Source: a virus (taxonomy: Duplodnaviria > Caudoviricetes). From it: DNA of 64,000 nucleotides. The stretch is from positions 1 through 64,000 of the IMG/VR virus record IMGVR_UViG_3300020577_008743; one strand, 5' to 3'. The notes under the pieces are model-generated. The model ran no database searches and was not told the origin of the DNA. It saw only the letters and a list, made by a program, of their open reading frames with translations. The position numbers were made by a program, and so were the translations under genes. This document shows, piece by piece, positions 5,647-45,918 of the stretch. Within the stretch, counting starts at the first letter, position 1, and each line of letters starts with the position of its first letter.

Positions 5647-6480
5647 ATGTCCCACACCCGCATTGACCTGGTGATCATCGATCCCCAGAACGATTTCATC
5701 GACGCTCCTGGTAAGCCCGGGTCCCTGGCCGTTCCCGGTGCCTACGACGATATGGGCCGGCTGGCGAAGTTCATCAGCCGTATGGGCAACCGGCTGTACG
5801 ACATTCACGTGACCATGGACACTCACAACGTCCTGGACGTGGCCCATCCCCGTGCCTTCATCAACGCCTCGACCGGAAACAACCCGACGCCGTTCACCAT
5901 GATCGACCCTGCTGACATCGGCAAGGTCTGGCTGGGCCTGACCAACGAGATGACCCGCCGGTTTCACGATTACTCGGAGCAGCTCAAGTCCAGGGCTCGC
6001 TACCCGCACATCATCTGGCCCGAACACTGTCTGAAGGGCAGCTGGGGCCACAACATCGACGAGCGTGTTCTCGAGGAACTGCAACGCTGGGAAGTGTCGG
6101 CCATCGGTCAGTTCGACGTGATCACCAAGGGCACCAATCCCTGGACCGAACACTACTCCGCAGTCCAGGCCGAGATCCCCGATCCGCAAGACCCCAGTAC
6201 GCAAGTGAACGTTGACTTCGTTCGCCTGCTGCAGGAATCCGACATCGTCGTCCTCTGCGGGGAGGCCCTGTCTCACTGTCTGGCCAACACCGGCCGGGAC
6301 TTGCACGGGCAGTTCAACAGCCTGTTCAACCCCACCGGCACCGGCAAACGGGCTGAGTTGGTTCTGCTTCGCGACTGCACCTCCAACGTCCCAACTTTCG
6401 AGAAGCTCGGCGACGACTTCATCAAGGACTTTCAGTCCTGGGGCGGCAAGGTCATGAACTCGACGGACTTCGGCACCTGA
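5647..6480 (+). CDS. nicotinamidase/isochorismatase-family cysteine hydrolase
   Basis: IIDPQNDF, TMDTH, WPEHC, KG..EHYS, GEALSHC. Confidence 0.85.
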   Translation: MSHTRIDLVIIDPQNDFIDAPGKPGSLAVPGAYDDMGRLAKFISRMGNRLYDIHVTMDTHNVLDVAHPRAFINASTGNNPTPFTMIDPADIGKVWLGLTNEMTRRFHDYSEQLKSRARYPHIIWPEHCLKGSWGHNIDERVLEELQRWEVSAIGQFDVITKGTNPWTEHYSAVQAEIPDPQDPSTQVNVDFVRLLQESDIVVLCGEALSHCLANTGRDLHGQFNSLFNPTGTGKRAELVLLRDCTSNVPTFEKLGDDFIKDFQSWGGKVMNSTDFGT

Positions 6481-28172: not shown

Positions 28173-28249
28173 GGGTCGCTAGCTCAGTCTGGTAGAGCAG
28201 CGGACTTTTAATCCGTTGGTCACTGGTTCGAATCCAGTGCGGCCTACCA
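28173..28249 (+). tRNA. tRNA-Lys(UUU)
   Basis: cloverleaf, TTT, CCA. Confidence 0.92.
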
Positions 28250-28256
28250 CAAATTT

Positions 28257-28332
28257 GGGGCCATAGCTCAGTTGGGAGAGCGGGTGCTTTGCAAGCATCA
28301 GGTCGTCGGTTCGATCCCGTCTGGCTCCACCA
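28257..28332 (+). tRNA. tRNA-Ala(UGC)
   Basis: G3.U70, TGC, CCA. Confidence 0.93.
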
Positions 28333-28561: not shown

Positions 28562-28653
28562 GGGAGAATAGCTCAATTGGTAGAGCAGCGGATTTATATC
28601 CCGTGCGTTAGATAAACGGTTGGTTGAGGGTTCGAGCCCCTCTTCTCCCACCA
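28562..28653 (+). tRNA. atypical tRNA, possibly Ile(UAU), with ~16 extra nt in the anticodon/variable region
   Basis: perfect acceptor, D and T arms and ACCA; irregular middle. Confidence 0.65.
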
Positions 28654-29493: not shown

Positions 29494-29579
29494 TGCGGGA
29501 TAGTGAGTAGCTGGTAGCTCTGAGGTCTCATAAGCCTCCGCCCTTGGCCCCGTCGGTTCGAGTCCGACTCCCGCAACCA
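29494..29579 (+). tRNA. tRNA-Met(CAU), atypical (extra nt before D stem, enlarged variable loop)
   Basis: TGCGGGA/TCCCGCA-ACCA; CAT. Confidence 0.8.
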
Positions 29580-29889: not shown

Positions 29890-29894
29890 ACTGC

Positions 29895-29970
29895 TGTCCC
29901 GTCGCCAAGTCTGGCCTAAGGCACCGGATTTTGATTCCGGCATACGTTAGTTCGAATCTAACCGGGACTG
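29895..29970 (+). tRNA. tRNA-Gln(UUG)
   Basis: TTG anticodon; CCA not encoded. Confidence 0.85.
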
Positions 29971-30160
29971 CCCTTCACTACAAACCAAATGAACCCTATT
30001 TTTGCAAGCCTTTTTTTCGATATACAGCCTCCGCCGGAGCTGTTGTTGTTCTTTGCTATTCTAGCAGCAGGTCTTGCGCTATTAGTAGGGACAATAGAAA
30101 CCTGGCTCTGGTTCACCAATTGGGCCAAAAATCGCCATAAATAACAAGGACTTAAAATAT

Positions 30161-36661: not shown

Positions 36662-36696
36662 AAATAGGTCATCGTAACTGAATGAAAGGCTTCACC

Positions 36697-37500
36697 ATGG
36701 ACGCCCGGAAATCCGTAGCACTGCACACCCTCGTCGCTGTTCGCCCGACGTTGGAAACAACCCTGAAAACGATCTCAGCCGAAACGGACAACTCCTTCCG
36801 AAAACCCGAAAGCCTGACGGAATGGGAAAAGACCTTCACATCGACGGTCACCTGGCCGGAAGGCTCCGAGGCTCTGAAGGTCGCTCTGGAATCCCAACGT
36901 TCCGGTCACCGTGCGGCGGTCACTTCAACTCAGGATCGAATCGGTTACGAAGCCGCCGAACAGGTCAAGTACTGGGACTTGATGCACAACATCGAGCTGG
37001 GCAACCAGGTCGCGGTTGCTGACGTGGTCCTAAAAGACGGCACAGTCTTGATGACCCGCGTCCCCGCAACGCACTTGCGTCGACTGGATACGTGGCTCAC
37101 CACCTTCCGCAACCGCATCGCGAACTGTCCCACGGTCCCGTCAACTATCAACGTGGAACAGGCCTCCCGCAACGGCAGAATGGTCTACGCCGGACCGGTG
37201 AAAACCATCACCGTGTACGAGGAAACCAAAAGCTGGGTGAAGGTCGCCGAGGCCAATGTACACCAGAAGGAAGCCACCGTCCGCGAAGCCGTCACCAAGA
37301 CGCCAATCGGCATCGAGAAGGAGATCAACTACTACGGCATGCCCACTTCTTCGGAGAAGGCACAGCTGCTGACCCGTCTTGATGAGCTGATCGTGGCAGT
37401 CAAGGAGGCGATCACTGAATCAAACACGGTGACCATCGAACCCGTTTCGGTCTCCAAAACTCTCATGGCCTATGCCTTCACCGGCAAGGTCAATGCCTGA
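36697..37500 (+). CDS. conserved elongated coiled-coil/beta-hairpin protein (DUF7873-like by recall, unverified)
   Basis: ADVV..G.VL...VPAT.L..L....; K..L..R.D.L..AVK.A..E.N pattern. Confidence 0.65.
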   Translation: MDARKSVALHTLVAVRPTLETTLKTISAETDNSFRKPESLTEWEKTFTSTVTWPEGSEALKVALESQRSGHRAAVTSTQDRIGYEAAEQVKYWDLMHNIELGNQVAVADVVLKDGTVLMTRVPATHLRRLDTWLTTFRNRIANCPTVPSTINVEQASRNGRMVYAGPVKTITVYEETKSWVKVAEANVHQKEATVREAVTKTPIGIEKEINYYGMPTSSEKAQLLTRLDELIVAVKEAITESNTVTIEPVSVSKTLMAYAFTGKVNA

Positions 37501-37666
37501 AAAGGAATGAAGTCGTAAGTTTGGCTAACGCACATTGCGCAACTCACAGCTGACATTGGGTCTGATAACCCTGAGGGTTATCTTGCAAGGCCCACAAACG
37601 CACAACGCAAAACGCCAAACAAACGCACATAACTTCCTGGAGTAGAAAACCGCCGAAAACATCGCC

Positions 37667-37780
37667 TTGGAGTTTCAAACGAAATCGTGTCGGGGGTTCG
37701 AGCCCCTCCGCCGCTTCAAATTGCATACTAACGTGTGTAATTCGGAGCGGTGTAACTCAGTGGTAGAGTACGGTTTCCAA
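37667..37780 (+). ncRNA. circularly permuted tRNA-like domain within the 37500-37900 non-coding region
   Basis: T arm, then CGCCGCT, hairpin linker, AGCGGTG, D arm; closed by GAAATCGT/ACGGTTTC. Confidence 0.8.
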
Positions 37781-37949
37781 TACACCCAAAAAACCTCTAA
37801 TGAGCGTGGTCAAAAGCACAACCAGGTATACTAATAGCGTATATTGCTACCAATGATACCAGGTCCCTATGGGGTCGGATAATGCCCTGTGGGGACCGCT
37901 TAATGCAGATTTGGATTCAATAAGTCTCCATTAAGCGGTATAAGAATAT

Positions 37950-38523: not shown

Positions 38524-38661
38524 TAGGACCGCAGAATTACGATTATCTATAATAGCTGACATGCTGCAGGTTCGAGTCCTGCCTGGCCCACCATCTATGG
38601 GTCCAGTGGCGAAATGGTATACGCATCAGCCCTAAACCAGTCGTATTCATAATTTGTCCTA
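38524..38661 (+). ncRNA. Y RNA-like 1 (YrlA type, tRNA-like domain)
   Basis: TAGGAC-CG..TTTGTCCTA stem, TTATC, T arm-acceptor-D arm order. Confidence 0.85.
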
Positions 38662-38670
38662 TTCTTCAAC

Positions 38671-38729
38671 GGGGGCGAAGTAGAAACTTATGAAGTTCGC
38701 AGCTTCTATTTTTCGATACGCTTCCACCA
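38671..38729 (+). ncRNA. 59-nt alanine-acceptor minihelix-like RNA
   Basis: GGGGGCG/CGCTTCC-A-CCA with G3.U70. Confidence 0.6.
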
Positions 38730-38734
38730 ACAAA

Positions 38735-39061
38735 ATGTCTCACACAACCGAGTTGTACTTCGAGTCACATATCACTATTGAGCCCGTGTTCGATGAAAGA
38801 CTGGAACAGTTCAAGGGAATATGTGCTTCGGAGGGTTTCAAGGCAGCAGAGCTGCTGATGAAAAAACGTTCGGGTGATACCGCTGAACGTTCGCAGTACG
38901 ATACCTTTTGCACTAGTAGAGATCTTATTTATGATAAAATCCAGACTAGAACATTAACCTTGGTCGAAAAGTTGCAGTCTTCCGGGTTTGACGTCTGGAG
39001 ATATAAGATTGAGAATACCTTGTTGGATGTTAGACTTAAATTAGAGTCTAAAATCCAGTAG
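38735..39061 (+). CDS. hypothetical protein inside the Y RNA cluster
   Basis: YFESHITI..WRYKIE. Confidence 0.65.
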   Translation: MSHTTELYFESHITIEPVFDERLEQFKGICASEGFKAAELLMKKRSGDTAERSQYDTFCTSRDLIYDKIQTRTLTLVEKLQSSGFDVWRYKIENTLLDVRLKLESKIQ

Positions 39062-39162
39062 GGCAAAAGATTCGATTGTTGTTTATATTACTAAATATAT
39101 TGAGTCTGTAAAAGCTGTTTGCAGTAGAATCAAGAAACATTCGTAGTACTAGAAGCATCCTC

Positions 39163-39224
39163 AGGGCCGCAGGAAGATCGGTTATCCCCTACACTGATGA
39201 CTCCGATTTCCGTATTTTCGCCCT
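39163..39224 (+). ncRNA. Y RNA-like 2 (minimal)
   Basis: AGGGC-CG..TTCGCCCT, GGAAGATCGG/CCGATTTCC, TTATC. Confidence 0.75.
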
Positions 39225-39234
39225 TCCCCCAATT

Positions 39235-39295
39235 AGAGCCGATTTGAGCTGGGTTATCCTTCTAAGATACCTCCCCATCTCAGTTCCCTTGCTCT
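39235..39295 (+). ncRNA. Y RNA-like 3 (minimal)
   Basis: AGAGC-CG..TTGCTCT, TGAG.TGGG/CCCA.CTCA, TTATC. Confidence 0.75.
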
Positions 39296-39324
39296 CCCTC
39301 TTGTAGTTGTGGTACAATCAACTT

Positions 39325-39453
39325 TTGAGCCGCTGTTAAATTCCGTTATCTTCCTTAGAAATAGGAAGTTGCGGGTTCGAATCCCGTCGCCAGCTTATAT
39401 CTGGCGTAGTTTAATTGGTAAAACTAAAACCGGAACTACACTAATTCGCTCAA
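39325..39453 (+). ncRNA. Y RNA-like 4 (tRNA-like domain)
   Basis: TTGAGC-CG..TTCGCTCAA, TTATC, GGTTCGAATCC, CGCCAG/CTGGCG, TAGTTTAATTGGTAAAAC; TGTGGTACAAT just upstream. Confidence 0.85.
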
Positions 39454-39460
39454 CCCCATT

Positions 39461-39530
39461 TAGGGCCGTCAGGTTATGTCGGTTATCTCACTTTTAGCGA
39501 AAACCCCGATTAACCATAAATTTTGCCCTA
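39461..39530 (+). ncRNA. Y RNA-like 5 (minimal)
   Basis: TAGGGC-CG..TTTGCCCTA, GGTTA..TCGG/CCGA.TAACC, TTATC. Confidence 0.75.
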
Positions 39531-39549
39531 CTGATTTAAATTTCAATTT

Positions 39550-39609
39550 GGAGCCGCTTAAAACTGGGTTATCAATTGGTGATTACTCCCCAGTCTAACT
39601 TTTCGCTCC
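39550..39609 (+). ncRNA. Y RNA-like 6 (minimal)
   Basis: GGAGC-CG..TTCGCTCC, ACTGGG/CCCAGT, TTATC. Confidence 0.75.
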
Positions 39610-39663
39610 TCCCGTTTAAACAAAGATTGCTGGGTTCAAACCTCTTTCTTTTAGCTGTTCAAA

Positions 39664-41609
39664 ATGACCTCTCACAGAAAAATTACCCCGTCTGAACGAA
39701 ATATTCTCCACCTCATAAATCGTAGCATAGCGGATTCAGAAGGCTGGTGTAATGTAAGTTCTGCCGTGTTTCCCCTTGTCAAAGACTTTGACTCTGAACT
39801 AGTTGAAATAAACGGCAACAAAATTCGGTTGACATCGGTAGGTAAGATACTTGCAGATTGGACTTGATTATGACCGACTCAGAACTAATACAAAATGCGG
39901 CTAAAGCCATCGGACTCATTGCAACCCCGATATTTACGGAAAATTTCGAGGGCCAGGAGTGGTGGGCGTATGAAGAAGGCAAGCCTACACAAACGCTAAG
40001 GCCGTGGAATCCTCTTGTGGATGATGGGGATGCCCTACGGTTGCTCGTAGAACTTGGAGACTATGTCCAGGAGGGGAGCTGGCCTTATATGTGGGGAGAG
40101 GCCCAAGAACAGGCTAAAGAAAACGATGGGCAAATAGACTGGTGTAAGGTTGTTCGTAGAACCATAGTAAAAGCTGCCGCCAATAAATGGTTAAGGATGG
40201 ATAGATCAAATGAAAAAGCAACCTCTAAATCCGCAGATTGAAAAACTTCTCGAGTTGTTAGACAAGGCCACGGAAGAACAACGAGGCAGCGAGAGGGCCC
40301 TGTACCTGTTGCTGAAACTCAATGTCGCTGTTCTTCCTGAACTGGATTACAGTTTTCACAAGGCTTTCAGACAGTATGATGTAACTGAGTCCGGTGAAAT
40401 GGATATGGCAATCTGGCATCTTTTAGGGGTTTCAAAGACGTTCTGGGAGGTGTTCGGGAAAATTACCGGAACAGATGATGAGGAGCCCGGCGAAGATGGC
40501 TAGAATAGAACTTATCTTCCCCGAGGAAGGATACCGTGAAGTAATCGGTGAAAGAGCACTCACTTTGGAAGAGGCTTTTGAAGCAGGAGTATTTTGGGCG
40601 ACCAGGCAGTTTCAAAGTAAATTCGGCATGTACTACCGCAAAGATGAGTGGGGAGAAAGAGACTACGTAGATGTAAAGTCCATTTTCCCCGATCATGTCA
40701 GGGACAAGATATGACCTGTAGGTTTTGCAACAAACCTTCCGTCAGTTACTACGATATATCTTTGACTGGTATTGGCAATTTCATTGAATACTGCAAGAAT
40801 CACCAGGAAGAGGCTCGTCAAAAGCGCGATGAGCATGATAGATATTGGGAAGAAATCCGAAAGGAAGTTATGAGGGAAAATGGCTAAAGTAACCTGGACA
40901 ATAGAGGATCACATATGTAGTTCTTGCGGGGGTCGAATAGTAAGATCAGCCAAGGGAACTGGTCCCACCCCTGGAGGAAATCCCGTATACAAGTGTTCTT
41001 TATGTGGTAAAGTTACAACAGAAATGGGAGGTCATTCCCTGTGTTGGTGCGGATATTCACAGAAATCCAATAACAACTCCCTTCCATATAAATGCGTTCC
41101 GTATTCGATATTAGAGAAATACCCTGACGGCTTAAGTTACTTTAAGTTTTGTGGATGTGATCCTAGGCGGGGAGGGGAAGTGGGAGTAATGTTAGAGGAG
41201 GATTGGAATGAACTTAGAAAAAAAGACATTGCCGTACAAGTCATACCACCAACAGCTGATTGAGGCTAACACCAAAACAGAGGCTCTTCGAGAACTAATC
41301 TCAACATTGGGTGAATTGTTGGTAAAAGAACAGGAAGCCCGTATTTTATACGAAGATGCTGTATGGAAAATGGTCAACGATGGTTGGTTAGTCCACGGTC
41401 CGGAAGGCATGAGTGAAGCTCAACAAGCTGTCTATGATGTTTGTAAAAATCATCCGGAGCTAAAAACTCGAATAAAACAAAAGCAAGAAGAACAGAGAAA
41501 TTACGAAGAAGCTACGAACAGAAATGTTCGGCTAGAATCCACTCCGGGAACATACGTACCAAATCCCAAACCCCTACCAGCCTGGCGTCGTTTGTTTCGC
41601 TGGCTGTAA
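39664..41609 (+). other. run of small hypothetical genes (39664-39867, 39858-40241, 40210-40503, ~40496-40714, ~40711-40887, 40880-41263, 41208-41609)
   Basis: overlapping + strand ORFs. Confidence 0.55.
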
Positions 41610-41615
41610 CCAAAT

Positions 41616-41743
41616 TTGAGCCGTTAGAATTTGATTATCCAATCGCAGGACGTGGTCAAAGGTTCGAATCCTTTCTCCCCCGCCATCAATGGGGGAGTAG
41701 CTCAGAGGTAGAGCACGTAAACTCGAATTCTGTTTTTGCTCAA
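41616..41743 (+). ncRNA. Y RNA-like 7 (tRNA-like domain)
   Basis: TTGAGC-CG..TTTGCTCAA, TTATC, AAAGGTTCGAATCCTTT, CTCCCCC/GGGGGAG, TAGCTCAGAGGTAGAGC. Confidence 0.88.
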
Positions 41744-41750
41744 TTCCAAT

Positions 41751-41881
41751 TTGGACCGAAGTTATTCAGTTATCGCTCCCAATGCGCCAGATCGGTTAAG
41801 TCCAGCACCCGTTGATTCATGGGTCGTAGTGTATAGAAGCACGGCGCATATTTTCAATTGATTAACGTTCACTTTGTCCAA
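41751..41881 (+). ncRNA. Y RNA-like 8 (degenerate tRNA-like domain)
   Basis: TTGGAC-CGAA..CTTTGTCCAA, TTATC, TGCGCC/GGCGCA enclosing T-, acceptor- and D-like hairpins. Confidence 0.8.
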
Positions 41882-41921: not shown

Positions 41922-43598
41922 ATGTCTGCAAAGAATCTTGTGAATCACCTCGTTCCGGGCCGCTATGCTTCCATTCCTGCGAAGCGTACTCCCGCCGCCC
42001 CGAAGGTGACCAAATCCACCAACCCGAACGCTGGCCTGCCGCCAGTGTCCACTTCTGCGTATCAGAAAACCGCCGCCGGCCAAGTTCAAAACTCGTCCGG
42101 AGCCTATGTTGGCAAATTGGATGTGTGGGCTCATCTGAATCGGTTTCTCATTCTCGGCACTTCCGGCTCGTCCTACTACGCCTCAGAGCGCAAGATGACC
42201 GTTGACATGGCCAAGGCCGTGGAAGCTGCAGTGAAATACAACGGCATTTCCACCGTCGATCTGATCGTGGAAATCAGCCAAGCCGGTGCCGCTCCAAAGA
42301 ATGATCCGGCCTTGCTGGCTCTGGCCATCTGCGTCGCCAAGGGGGATGATTCCACCAAGGCCTACGCAATGAACCAGCTGCCGAAGGTAGCCAGAATTTC
42401 GACTCACCTGTTCGATTTTCTGACCTACGTTCAGGCCATGAGAGGCTGGGGAAGAACCCTGAAAGAAGGTGTTGCCAACTGGTATACTTCCAAGGATCTG
42501 AACCCCTTAGCCATGCAGATGACGAAGTATCGTCAAAGAAATGGCTGGACTCACCGCGACGTTCTGAGACTGGCTCACCCGAAGCCCACCTCCGAGTCCA
42601 TGAACAATCTGTTCAAGTGGGCCATCAAAGGTCCAGAAGCACTGGAAAGAGGTGCGGAAATCCCTGAACAAGTCATCGGCTTCGAGAAGGCAAAGACCGC
42701 AGGTTCCGGTACTCTGGTCAAACTGATTCAGGATTACCGCCTGACCTGGGAGATGATTCCGACTGAGATGCTGAATGATGCCAACGTGTTTCACGCTCTA
42801 GTCATGAGCATGAATCTCGAGGCCATGATTCGCAATCTGCCGCGCATCACCAATCTCAACTTGTTGCTTACTCGGGAAGTCAGGGACCGTATTCTGAGTC
42901 TTCTGAGAAACGCAGAGGAGATCAAGGCCAAGCGGTACCATCCCCTCAAGGCTCTGGTGGCTAGAAAGACCTACGCCAGTGGCCGAGGTCTGAAGGGTAG
43001 CATGACCTGGGTACCCAACGCCGAGGTTGCCAGGGCCCTGGAAGACACGTTCTATCTGGGGTTCGATGCAGTGGAACCCACAGGCAAAAGACTTCTGTTG
43101 GGTATCGACGTCTCCGGCTCCATGACCATGGGCCAAGTAGGGGGCATGCCCCTTGCTCCGTACGAAGCTGTTGCCGCAATGGCAATGGTTACGGCACGTT
43201 GCGAACCTCTGGCAGAAATCCTCGGCTTTTCGTACAACCTGCAAGACCTTGGTATCAAGAACACCGATACTCTGGCCCAGGTTCTGAAGAAAGTGCAATT
43301 GGCTCGATTTGGAAGTACGAATCCCGGAGCACTAATTCAGTACGCAGCCAAGAAAGGCAATGTGGAAGGCCTGGTCGTCTACACCGACAACGAAGTGAAC
43401 CAAGGTTCCAGCGTTGCGGCAGAGATGAAGAAATATCGCACCAAGGCTTCTGTGGCCAGAGCAACGATGACTGTAGTCGGAATGACGGTCAACAATTTCA
43501 CCCTAGCCGACCCCAAAGATCCAGACATGCTCGACATTGTTGGATTCGATACCGCTGCTCCAGCAGTGATGTCCGAGTTCATCAAGGGCACTTTCTGA
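41922..43598 (+). CDS. rsr: Ro60/Rsr TROVE-vWA RNA-binding protein
   Basis: RFLILG, KYRQRNGWTHRDVLRLAHP, AMIRNL, IDVSGSM, YTDNE, MLDIVGFD. Confidence 0.95.
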   Translation: MSAKNLVNHLVPGRYASIPAKRTPAAPKVTKSTNPNAGLPPVSTSAYQKTAAGQVQNSSGAYVGKLDVWAHLNRFLILGTSGSSYYASERKMTVDMAKAVEAAVKYNGISTVDLIVEISQAGAAPKNDPALLALAICVAKGDDSTKAYAMNQLPKVARISTHLFDFLTYVQAMRGWGRTLKEGVANWYTSKDLNPLAMQMTKYRQRNGWTHRDVLRLAHPKPTSESMNNLFKWAIKGPEALERGAEIPEQVIGFEKAKTAGSGTLVKLIQDYRLTWEMIPTEMLNDANVFHALVMSMNLEAMIRNLPRITNLNLLLTREVRDRILSLLRNAEEIKAKRYHPLKALVARKTYASGRGLKGSMTWVPNAEVARALEDTFYLGFDAVEPTGKRLLLGIDVSGSMTMGQVGGMPLAPYEAVAAMAMVTARCEPLAEILGFSYNLQDLGIKNTDTLAQVLKKVQLARFGSTNPGALIQYAAKKGNVEGLVVYTDNEVNQGSSVAAEMKKYRTKASVARATMTVVGMTVNNFTLADPKDPDMLDIVGFDTAAPAVMSEFIKGTF

Positions 43599-45309: not shown

Positions 45310-45918
45310 ATGAGTCAGCCACCAGTTTACCGCAACACTCTCCCCGATCATCTGTTTCAGATGTACCCGCTGTTGAAACGTACCCTCACGCTGATTCAGC
45401 TGGGACACGCCGGTCAGTTGTACAACGGGCATCCTTACTGGCATCATCCGGTGCGGGTTGCCATGAGGCTGGAATCACTGTGGGTACAGAACGAGGGGTC
45501 TTTGCTGTATTCCGCTCTTCTTCACGACTTGATCGAAGATACTTCCCTGGAAGTCGATGATTTGAAGGAGTTCGGATATTCCGACACCGTGGTAAAAACG
45601 GTCAAAGCCCTGACTCATGATGCATTCGATACCCGGACGTACATGGAGTATGTCCAGGACATCACCATTCATCCGGAGTCTTTCGTTCGCCACGGAGCCA
45701 GCCTTGTCAAGTTGGCAGACCTGACGGAGAACGTGAACGGAGCCAGGTTTCTGCCCATGGAGAAAAGGGGAAGAATGGAACGTTACGGAAAGGCAATATC
45801 GGTCATTCAAGACTCTCTCATTCTTCACAGCCCCTGGGTAGCCCACTCCGTCCACGTCGGTGAGTTGGACGCAGCCAAGCTTGAGATGTGGTTCGGCCAT
45901 CCCCCAGCGTTTCTGTAA
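45310..45918 (+). CDS. HD-domain hydrolase ((p)ppGpp hydrolase/Mesh1-like)
   Basis: HAGQ..PYWHHP, ALLHDLIEDT, VKLAD..N. Confidence 0.8.
   Translation: MSQPPVYRNTLPDHLFQMYPLLKRTLTLIQLGHAGQLYNGHPYWHHPVRVAMRLESLWVQNEGSLLYSALLHDLIEDTSLEVDDLKEFGYSDTVVKTVKALTHDAFDTRTYMEYVQDITIHPESFVRHGASLVKLADLTENVNGARFLPMEKRGRMERYGKAISVIQDSLILHSPWVAHSVHVGELDAAKLEMWFGHPPAFL

What the first reader, a model, noticed from the sequence alone, without database searches (positions are those of the whole stretch)
38560..41720. Y RNA tRNA-like domains keep discriminator plus CCA in the loop closing the acceptor stem
Seen: Y1 has CTGGCCC-ACCA-TCTAT-GGGTCCAG and Y7 has CTCCCCC-GCCA-TCAAT-GGGGGAG; Y4 and Y8 lack CCA. Known: YrlA acceptor stems are closed by a loop. 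Inference: RNase P plus 3' trimming could open the loop and give a two-piece, CCA-ended and possibly chargeable tRNA mimic tethered to Ro60. The D arms resemble different tRNA classes (Y1 Leu-like TGGCGAAATGGTATACGC), suggesting independent capture of tRNA genes.
Basis: partly seen in the sequence, partly recalled or inferred. Interest (0 to 1): 0.7.

Follow-up and report, generated by a model that had tools for sequence, protein, structure and literature searches.

The report
Phage Y RNAs with built-in CCA
Two of the small RNAs that this phage encodes beside its Ro60 gene are back-to-front tRNA look-alikes whose acceptor stem is closed by a loop written like a tRNA end (N-CCA plus a short leader), a recurring design in phage Y RNAs that most likely lets RNase P open them, as already shown for one mycobacterial Y RNA.

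Summary
Y1 reads CTGGCCC-ACCA-TCTAT-GGG(T)CCAG and Y7 reads CTCCCCC-GCCA-TCAAT-GGGGGAG. Y4 and Y8 have no CCA at that place. All are YrlA-type Y RNAs, that is, circularly permuted tRNA-like modules on a Ro-binding stem. They belong to a set of eight Y RNAs upstream of a phage Ro60 gene.

The CCA is not chance. In a sample of 64 phage modules of this kind, 14 carry CCA exactly at tRNA positions 74-76 (p about 7e-11). Of the 34 loops not closed by a small hairpin, 28 have C74 and 31 sit on a perfect 7-bp acceptor stem. U is the commonest base at -1. The remaining 30 loops are sealed by tetraloop-type hairpins.

In the closest relative (Ro60 68% identical), the Y7 ortholog keeps N-CCA-TCAAT although its stems have diverged with compensating changes. 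The Y1 ortholog has lost the CCA, and the Y4 ortholog has one.

The proposed mechanism is not new. Chen et al. 2014 showed that M. smegmatis YrlA is cut by RNase P, receives a CCA end and stays bound to Ro60, and they raised aminoacylation. What is new here is the fully genome-encoded CCA and its recurrence as a class in phages. No cleavage or charging data could be obtained.

This scan has noted related tRNA-like Y RNAs beside phage Ro60 on other DNA before.

The parts
41922..43598 (+). Phage Ro60 (TROVE + vWA_Ro60) gene, the presumed protein partner of the Y RNAs
   Evidence: Pfam PF05731 at 2.8e-39 and PF25045 at 1.2e-41. There are 6842 homologs at E<=1e-20.
38524..38661 (+). Y1: a YrlA-type Y RNA with a Ro-binding stem (TAGGAC.../...GTCCTA), the GGACCG-N-GATTATC strand and a permuted, Leu-like tRNA module
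   Evidence: Motif scan, fold, sub-threshold Rfam YrlA hit over the full model, Leu-like D arm.
38583..38606 (+). Y1 acceptor hairpin: 3' strand 38583-38589, A73-CCA 38590-38593, spacer TCTAT 38594-38598, 5' strand 38599-38606 (imperfect, with a bulged U or a U-C mismatch). Predicted RNase P site at 38598/38599 or 38599/38600.
   Evidence: Sequence and parse.
39325..39453 (+). Y4: a YrlA-type Y RNA with a closed acceptor hairpin (6 bp plus a 7-nt loop CTTATAT) and no CCA
   Evidence: Its ortholog in L129 carries C-CCA-TCAAT-G.
41616..41743 (+). Y7: a YrlA-type Y RNA with a near-perfect permuted tRNA module
   Evidence: Best Rfam YrlA hit in the genome (36.4 bits), fold, and an RNAalifold consensus with 19 of 27 pairs covarying.
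41675..41697 (+). Y7 acceptor hairpin: CTCCCCC 41675-41681, G73-CCA 41682-41685, spacer TCAAT 41686-41690, GGGGGAG 41691-41697. Predicted RNase P site between 41690 and 41691. Predicted products are about 70 nt (41616-41685) and 53 nt (41691-41743).
   Evidence: Sequence. The ortholog L129:7732-7788 keeps ACCATCAAT with changed stems.
41752..41880 (+). Y8: a Y RNA with a decayed tRNA-like module (degenerate T arm, 5-bp acceptor) and no CCA
39163..39609 (+). Array Y2 (39163-39224), Y3 (about 39233-39300), Y4, Y5 (39461-39530) and Y6 (39550-39609). Y2, Y3, Y5 and Y6 are minimal Y RNAs without a tRNA module.
   Evidence: Motif scan and folds.
37692..37790 (+). 'Y0': a fifth permuted tRNA-like module. 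Its acceptor 3' strand CGCCGCT is followed by T-CAA and a hairpin insert. It has no Ro-binding motif and lies after a DUF7873 gene.
   Evidence: Rfam YrlA 24.5 bits and parse. The L129 ortholog has T-CCA at this place.

Best explanation
Y1 and Y7 are YrlA-type Y RNAs, each a Ro60-docking stem joined to a circularly permuted tRNA body. They belong to an 'openable' subclass. In this subclass the loop closing the acceptor stem is written like a tRNA 3' end fused to a tRNA 5' leader: discriminator, CCA, then about 5 AU-rich bases ending in U just before G+1.

The most likely course has three steps:
1. Host RNase P recognises the 12-bp acceptor/T helix, the D/T elbow and the N73-CCA, and cuts 5' of G+1.
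2. 3' exonucleases trim the few spacer bases back to CCA.
3. The nicked two-piece RNA, held together by the acceptor and Ro-binding stems, stays on the phage Ro60 and displays a free tRNA-like CCA end.

What is shown here is the sequence anatomy, its non-random recurrence and its conservation. The cleavage, the trimming, the Ro60 binding and any later use of the CCA end (protection from exonucleases, docking of tRNA-binding proteins, or charging) are inferred. The inference rests on the M. smegmatis YrlA experiments.
For: - Anatomy.
- Ro60 gene 179 nt downstream of Y7.
- NCCA at positions 73-76 in 14 of 64 phage modules, p = 7e-11, with positional specificity.
- 8 of 52 clusters are all-NCCA, p = 1.4e-5.
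- Among the 34 open loops, 28 have C74 (p = 1e-11) and 31 sit on a perfect 7-bp stem; -1 is U in 15 of the 34.
- The spacers mostly end in C(U/A)AU.
- The other 30 loops are sealed by GNRA/UUCG-type hairpins, so the distribution has two classes.
- The Y7 ortholog in L129 keeps 8 of 9 loop bases, while the T stem differs at 4 of 5 pairs and 5 of the 7 acceptor pairs change with compensation.
- Glu-like and CTCCCCG-type lineages keep NCCA while the spacer length varies.
- This phage's tRNA genes encode CCA in 16 of 17 cases.
- Loci with NCCA modules have more CCA-encoding tRNA genes (82% against 57%).
- About 20 un-permuted tRNA-Y chimeras in the same sample have naturally free acceptor ends followed by NCCA or NC-.
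- Precedent: M. smegmatis YrlA (147 nt) is found as an 82-nt piece (with CA added to give CCA) and a 65-nt piece. Both are Rsr-bound, and M1 RNA cleaves it in vitro. The 7-bp stem is named as the determinant.
Against: - There are no RNA data for this phage.
- CCA is not conserved in the Y1 ortholog, which has a closed TTTGT loop. It switches on and off among paralogs between the two related phages.
- Y1's acceptor helix is imperfect.
- Near-CCA loops (CAA, CTA) exist and look like decay products.
- RNase P action on a leader tied into a 9-nt loop is inferred from one organism only.
Confidence: 0.55

Rival explanations
1. Evolutionary relic. The modules arose from, or were gene-converted by, head-to-tail tRNA genes that encode CCA (3' half of one, spacer, 5' half of the next). 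On this view the NCCA-plus-spacer is leftover sequence with no present role, the RNAs stay closed, and the loops drift towards stable tetraloop closures.
For: - Tandem tRNA-Lys/Ala in this window scores as YrlA (22 bits). The same pitfall is noted by Chen et al..
- 16 of 17 phage tRNA genes encode CCA, and some tandem pairs have 5-7 nt spacers.
- CCA is lost in the Y1 ortholog and gained in the Y4 ortholog.
- CAA and CTA variants exist.
- NCCA modules are associated with CCA-encoding tRNA genes.
Against: - The loop is nearly invariant in the Y7 orthologs while the stems turned over.
- Several lineages keep NCCA while the spacer length changes.
- C74 occurs in 28 of 34 open loops, the commonest base is U at -1 and A at -2, and 31 of 34 stems are exactly 7 bp.
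- The loop spacers (TCAAT, CTAT) do not resemble this phage's own tRNA leaders.
Confidence: 0.25
2. Closed-loop ligand site or decoy. The uncut loop presents N-CCA as a bait for a protein or RNA that reads tRNA 3' ends. Candidates are RNase P, the CCA-adding enzyme, an acceptor-end-modifying toxin or defence nuclease, or a synthetase. This would tether such a factor to Ro60, or soak it up, without any cleavage.
For: Y RNAs act as tethers between Ro60 and effector proteins (the D. radiodurans PNPase case, as summarised). The Y RNA cluster lies inside a large tRNA gene set (17 tRNAs). The loop sequence CCATCAAT is conserved beyond CCA itself.
Against: No candidate partner was identified. The record holds no CCA-adding enzyme and no RtcB. 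The features that are enriched (7-bp stem, U-1, C74) are those of a cleavage substrate. M. smegmatis YrlA is cleaved.
Confidence: 0.12
3. True circularly permuted tRNA genes, as in the red alga Cyanidioschyzon, that mature into working tRNAs.
For: The 3' half precedes the 5' half, and CCA is encoded. The comparison is raised in Wang et al. 2018.
Against: There is no anticodon loop. The anticodon-stem position continues into a conserved Ro-binding helix with free ends. No bacterial splicing endonuclease is known. ARAGORN calls no tRNA here.
Confidence: 0.02

Closest known systems
Mycobacterium smegmatis YrlA (Chen et al. 2014, RNA 20:1715, PMC4201824)
   Same: - It is a Y RNA encoded upstream of Ro60/Rsr with a permuted tRNA-like module and a 7-bp acceptor stem closed by a loop.
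- It is cut at the RNase P site in vivo and by M1 RNA in vitro.
- The 5' piece ends in CCA, and both pieces stay Rsr-bound.
- The authors raise aminoacylation as a possibility.
   Different: - There only C74 is templated, and CA is added after cleavage. Only about 2 nt of loop are lost (147 nt against 80+65).
- Here the whole N-CCA plus a 5-nt leader is templated, as in this phage's tRNA genes.
- Here the Ro-binding strand is of the animal/Deinococcus type (GGNCCG...GUUAUC) and not GNCGAAN0-1G.
- Here several open and closed paralogs coexist in one phage.
Salmonella Typhimurium YrlA / Rfam RF02553 (structure: Wang et al. 2018, doi 10.1101/312249)
   Same: The same permuted order (T arm, closed acceptor hairpin, D arm) on a Ro-binding stem. 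It is a tRNA L-shape mimic.
   Different: Salmonella YrlA has a 6-bp acceptor closed by a small loop. It is not cut by RNase P and has no CCA. The window's RNAs reach only 20-36 bits against the 69-bit gathering score.
Un-permuted 'tRNA-shaped' Y RNAs beside phage Ro60
   Same: The same parts (acceptor, D arm, Ro-docking helix, T arm). The acceptor 3' strand is followed by NCCA or NC-.
   Different: In those RNAs the chain ends lie at the acceptor stem and the Ro helix is a hairpin. Y1 and Y7 would reach the same shape only after being nicked, and as two pieces.
tmRNA and viral tRNA-like structures
   Same: A tRNA-like acceptor/T domain with a CCA end on a non-tRNA molecule. Two-piece tmRNAs from permuted genes are a precedent for nicked tRNA mimics (my own knowledge).
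   Different: Those are shown to be aminoacylated and to act in translation or replication. They have no Ro60 link, and no charging evidence exists here.

Membership tests
YrlA-type Y RNA (Chen et al. 2014; Rfam RF02553) | Encoded within about 4 kb of a Ro60/Rsr (TROVE) gene | tested here: met
   Ro60 lies at 41922-43598. Y7 ends 179 nt upstream of it and Y1 about 3.3 kb upstream.
YrlA-type Y RNA (Chen et al. 2014; Rfam RF02553) | Permuted tRNA-like module: T arm, loop-closed acceptor stem, D arm, flanked by an anticodon-stem analogue | tested here: met
   The RNAalifold consensus has 19 of 27 pairs covarying.
YrlA-type Y RNA (Chen et al. 2014; Rfam RF02553) | Score at or above the Rfam gathering threshold (69 bits), including the GNCGAAN0-1G Ro-binding strand | tested here: not met
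   The best score is 36.4 bits, and the local matches mostly cover only model positions 23-87. The Ro strand here is GRNCCG-N9-11-GNTTATC. Strict Rfam membership fails, but the architecture and genomic context are the same.
YrlA-type Y RNA (Chen et al. 2014; Rfam RF02553) | Bound by Ro60/Rsr in vivo | not testable with these tools
   No RNA or protein data are available.
Bacterial RNase P substrate (pre-tRNA-like) | 7-bp acceptor stacked on a 5-bp T stem, with T-loop UUCRANY and D-loop GG for the elbow | tested here: met
   Y7 is perfect. Y1 has a bulge or a mismatch in the acceptor.
Bacterial RNase P substrate (pre-tRNA-like) | N73-C74-C75 available to pair with the P15 loop, and U at -1 (my own knowledge of RNase P recognition) | tested here: met
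   ACCA...U-1 in Y1 (in the bulged-U register; the other register puts G at -1) and GCCA...U-1 in Y7.
Bacterial RNase P substrate (pre-tRNA-like) | Actual cleavage 5' of +1 | not testable with these tools
   Shown only for M. smegmatis YrlA.
Aminoacylatable tRNA mimic (tmRNA / viral TLS type) | Free 3' CCA end in the mature RNA | not testable with these tools
   This depends on the unverified cleavage and trimming.
Aminoacylatable tRNA mimic (tmRNA / viral TLS type) | Synthetase identity elements | tested here: inconclusive
   There is no anticodon. Y1 has A73 plus a Leu-type D arm. Y7 has G73 and no G3-U70. Neither window RNA has G-1:C73, although two CCA-bearing modules elsewhere do (L129:7571, L033).
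Circularly permuted tRNA gene (Soma et al. 2007) | Anticodon stem-loop restored after processing | tested here: not met
   The anticodon-stem analogue runs on into the Ro-binding helix and there is no 7-nt loop.

The most novel reading that the evidence does not exclude
Open, CCA-ended acceptor arms are a designed and widespread state of phage Y RNAs. They are reached either by RNase P nicking of permuted genes (Y1, Y7) or directly from un-permuted genes. Some of these RNAs would be aminoacylated: Leu-like modules with A73 such as Y1, or modules with G-1:C73. Phage Ro60 would then be tethered to a charged tRNA mimic and, through it, to EF-Tu, synthetases or the ribosome during infection.
Probability: 0.12. 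Interest if true: 0.8.

Novelty: new variant of a known kind. Interest (0 to 1): 0.45.

Why it matters
The role of the tRNA-like half of bacterial and phage Y RNAs is still unknown. Published opinion holds that most YrlAs are closed and are poor RNase P substrates, with M. smegmatis as the exception. In the phage sample examined here, about half of the permuted modules look built to be opened: a 7-bp stem, C74, and U as the commonest base at -1. About a fifth template the full CCA. If they are indeed opened, the free acceptor end is a functional feature and not a curiosity of one species. The window also supplies matched open (Y7, Y1) and closed (Y4) paralogs on one Ro60 for direct tests of RNase P cleavage, stability, partner binding and charging.

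Tried and rejected
- M. smegmatis YrlA for side-by-side comparison: two exact-pattern scans of genome contigs with the primer-derived 5' end from Chen et al. found nothing. The comparison therefore rests on the paper's text.
- blastn of the region against cultured phages gave no match. tblastn with Ro60 found 364 actinophage and other records at 40% identity or less. In the four loci fetched (Bxz1, Cashline, Forza, Comrade), the modules found are closed or of the A-C-U type, none has NCCA, and my scanner found no module in Bxz1.
- The promoter and terminator scan gave no more sites than shuffled sequence. Whether each Y RNA has its own promoter or is cut from a precursor is left open.
- The MAFFT alignment of the 14 NCCA modules misplaced some 5' strands. 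I therefore used my anchored parse and RNAalifold on full-length RNAs instead.
- Single-linkage clustering at 70% identity merged nearly everything, because tRNA-like cores are alike. Only the 80% clustering is used.
- Chance is rejected.
- A permuted working tRNA gene is rejected because there is no anticodon loop.
- A lead from an earlier scan note, that a preprint reports a phage Ro60-like protein countering a defence system, could not be found in three literature searches and one paper look-up (one search was returned with an error) and is not used.
- No CCA-adding enzyme (PF01743) and no RtcB (PF01139) are present in the 97-kb record, which is estimated 63% complete.
Full report
**Context.** The window is the first 64 kb of a 97.5-kb IMG/VR virus record. 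It carries 17 tRNA genes. It also carries a Ro60 gene at 41922-43598, with a TROVE domain at 2.8e-39 and a Ro60 vWA domain at 1.2e-41.

Upstream of Ro60 lie eight RNAs that begin with the strand GRNCCG-N9-11-GNTTATC. They start at 38526, 39164, 39236, 39327, 39463, 39551, 41618 and 41753 (the eighth was read by eye). The ends of each RNA pair in a short stem whose sequence covaries between copies: GGAC/GTCC, GGGC/GCCC and GAGC/GCTC. This is the Ro-binding helix of Y RNAs, of the animal/Deinococcus type.

Four of the eight (Y1, Y4, Y7, Y8) carry a circularly permuted tRNA-like module between the two strands. The order is T arm, acceptor 3' strand, loop, acceptor 5' strand, D arm. Rfam's YrlA model hits these modules below its threshold (36.4, 33.5 and 20.7 bits against 69). 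A fifth such module, without a Ro strand, lies at 37692-37790.

**The observation.** It is correct to the base. Y1 reads CTGGCCC (38583-38589), ACCA (38590-38593), TCTAT, GGGTCCAG. Y7 reads CTCCCCC (41675-41681), GCCA (41682-41685), TCAAT, GGGGGAG, then TA and a canonical D arm. Y7's acceptor is a perfect 7 bp. Y1's has a bulged U or, in another register, a U-C mismatch. Y4 is closed by CTTATAT on 6 bp. Y8 has a decayed T arm and a 5-bp stem. Neither Y4 nor Y8 has CCA at positions 74-76.

I then parsed every T arm that is followed by a 7-nt strand, a loop, its complement and a D arm, and removed true tRNAs called by ARAGORN.

Of the 64 modules linked to a Ro strand, 14 have CCA exactly at positions 74-76. 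Ten of these 14 lie outside the window and its close relative. The probability against loop composition is 7e-11. Among the 40 loops of 7 nt or more, CCA is at offset 1 in 14 and elsewhere in 6. After clustering at 80% identity, 8 of 52 clusters are all-NCCA (p = 1.4e-5).

The loops fall into two kinds:
- Thirty are sealed by small hairpins, many of them GNRA or UUCG tetraloops on one or two extra pairs.
- Thirty-four are open. Of these, 28 have C at position 74 (p = 1e-11) and 31 sit on a perfect 7-bp stem. The base before +1 is U in 15, and position -2 is A in 15.

The spacers after CCA are AU-rich and mostly end in C(U/A)AU. The open loops therefore read like a tRNA 3' end joined to a tRNA 5' leader.

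**Homologs.** The closest Ro60 (68% identical) lies on a syntenic contig, L129. That contig has the same series of RNAs.
- The Y7 ortholog has ACCATCAAT where the window has GCCATCAAT. Its T stem differs at 4 of 5 pairs, and 5 of the 7 acceptor pairs have changed with compensation. This indicates constraint on the loop.
- The Y1 ortholog keeps the Leu-like D arm but is closed by TTTGT, with no CCA.
- The Y4 ortholog has C-CCA-TCAAT-G where the window's Y4 is closed.
- The ortholog of the fifth module has T-CCA where the window has T-CAA.

Each phage thus keeps two or three NCCA modules out of five, but only Y7 shares the state. In unrelated phages, a Glu-like lineage keeps TCCA in 3 of 4 members while the spacer varies from 4 to 8 nt. 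A CTCCCCG-type lineage keeps ACCA in 3 of 4 members. An RNAalifold run on seven full-length NCCA-class RNAs recovers both Ro-stem helices, the T stem and the acceptor stem, with 19 of 27 pairs covarying.

**Relation to tRNA genes.** Sixteen of the 17 tRNA genes of this phage template CCA. Loci with an NCCA module have more CCA-templating tRNA genes than loci without one (65 of 79 against 69 of 121; Fisher p = 2e-4; the loci are not independent). The tandem tRNA-Lys/Ala pair of the window itself scores as YrlA. The tandem-tRNA origin proposed in another note is therefore plausible, but I could not test it. The phage's own tRNA leaders do not share the TCAAT or CTAT ending of the Y RNA loops.

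Y1's D arm is Leu-like: 18 of the 25 nearest D arms among 464 phage tRNAs are Leu, although Leu tRNAs make up only 9% of the set. The D arms of Y4, Y7 and the fifth module are generic. Y8's D arm matches no isotype (best similarity 0.42). Leu-like modules recur in L129, L042, L122 and L054, so this is an old lineage and not a recent capture.

**What is known.** Chen et al. 2014 showed the following for M. smegmatis YrlA, an RNA of about 147 nt with a 7-bp acceptor stem. It is found on Rsr mainly as a 65-nt 3' piece that starts at the RNase P site and an 82-nt 5' piece to which CA has been added to give CCA. M1 RNA cuts it in vitro. The authors suggested that CCA, and possibly aminoacylation, protects the RNA. 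Wang et al. 2018 restate this and judge most YrlAs to be poor RNase P substrates. I found no mention of a templated CCA in Y RNA loops, nor of an open class in phages, in these papers, in a 2026 preprint on tRNA mimics, or in a full-text search.

**Reading.** The window adds a variant in which the whole CCA and a short leader are templated, matching the style of the phage's own tRNA genes. The survey adds that this is a recurrent class. The same sample also holds about 20 un-permuted tRNA-shaped Y RNAs whose acceptor 3' strand is followed by NCCA (6) or mostly NC-. This partly confirms earlier notes of this scan and shows that a free acceptor end on a Ro-docked tRNA body is a normal state in phages.

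I put 0.55 on RNase P opening (higher for Y7 than for Y1), 0.25 on a functionless relic, 0.12 on a closed-loop bait and 0.02 on a working permuted tRNA gene. Charging is possible only for synthetases that ignore the anticodon. Y1 (A73 plus a Leu-type D arm) is the only candidate in the window. I rate charging at about 0.1.

The statements about RNase P recognition come from my own knowledge and not from a tool. They are that CCA pairs with the P15 loop and that U is preferred at -1.

**Limits.** There are no expression or end-mapping data. The survey is a truncated sample chosen by a sequence pattern, although that pattern does not involve the loop. The lineages are only roughly separated. The host is unknown.

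Noticed in passing
window 36682-37790 and L129:4743-5870: A DUF7873 gene (6.4e-25) is followed by about 400 nt with no long ORF. This stretch ends in a permuted tRNA-like module with a hairpin inserted in the acceptor loop and no Ro-binding strand. The gene-plus-RNA pair is conserved in L129.
   Followed up: partly
window 38671-38729; L129:6719-6771: Between Y1 and the next ORF lies a small hairpin RNA candidate. The ORF's true start is probably the ATG near 38735, judged from the L129 homolog. The terminal 6-7 bp stem of the hairpin is followed by ACCA in both phages, and the stem sequences differ with compensation. The fold z-score is -2.6 in the window and -1.2 in L129. The G3-U70/A73 'alanine' pattern seen in the window is not kept in L129.
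   Followed up: partly
window 39163-39224, 39233-39300, 39461-39530, 39550-39609: Four minimal Y RNAs of about 60-70 nt consist only of the Ro-binding stems and a loop, with no tRNA-like module. L129 holds similar ones at about 7122 and 7455, and one with only a T arm at 6478.
   Followed up: partly
IMG/VR loci, e.g. L114:121-244(-), L124:2164-2284(-), L071:3507-3628(+), L049:3805-3930(-): About 20 un-permuted tRNA-shaped Y RNAs have this order: acceptor 5' strand, D arm, Ro-binding strand with GNTTATC, T arm, acceptor 3' strand, then NCCA or NC-.
   Followed up: partly
L129:7571-7630, L033:5870-5927(-), and near-CCA modules in L105, L034, L128, L083: Several modules have C73 opposite a G at -1, the arrangement that marks bacterial tRNA-His. 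Two of them also have CCA. It may equally be an eighth base pair.
   Followed up: no
window 28216-28283: The junction of the tandem tRNA-Lys and tRNA-Ala genes (CCA plus a 7-nt spacer) scores 22 bits as YrlA. This illustrates how a dimeric tRNA resembles the permuted module.
   Followed up: yes
window 45310-45918: An HD-domain phosphohydrolase (phrog_990, 6.2e-24, matching only the middle of a 374-position profile) lies between Ro60 and tRNA-Arg. No nucleotidyltransferase head domain (PF01743) was found in the record.
   Followed up: partly
window 28562-28653, 29494-29579, 29894-29973: tRNA-Ile(TAT) and one tRNA-Met are unusually long (92 and 86 nt, with an insert in the variable region). tRNA-Gln is the only tRNA gene without a templated CCA.
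   Followed up: no
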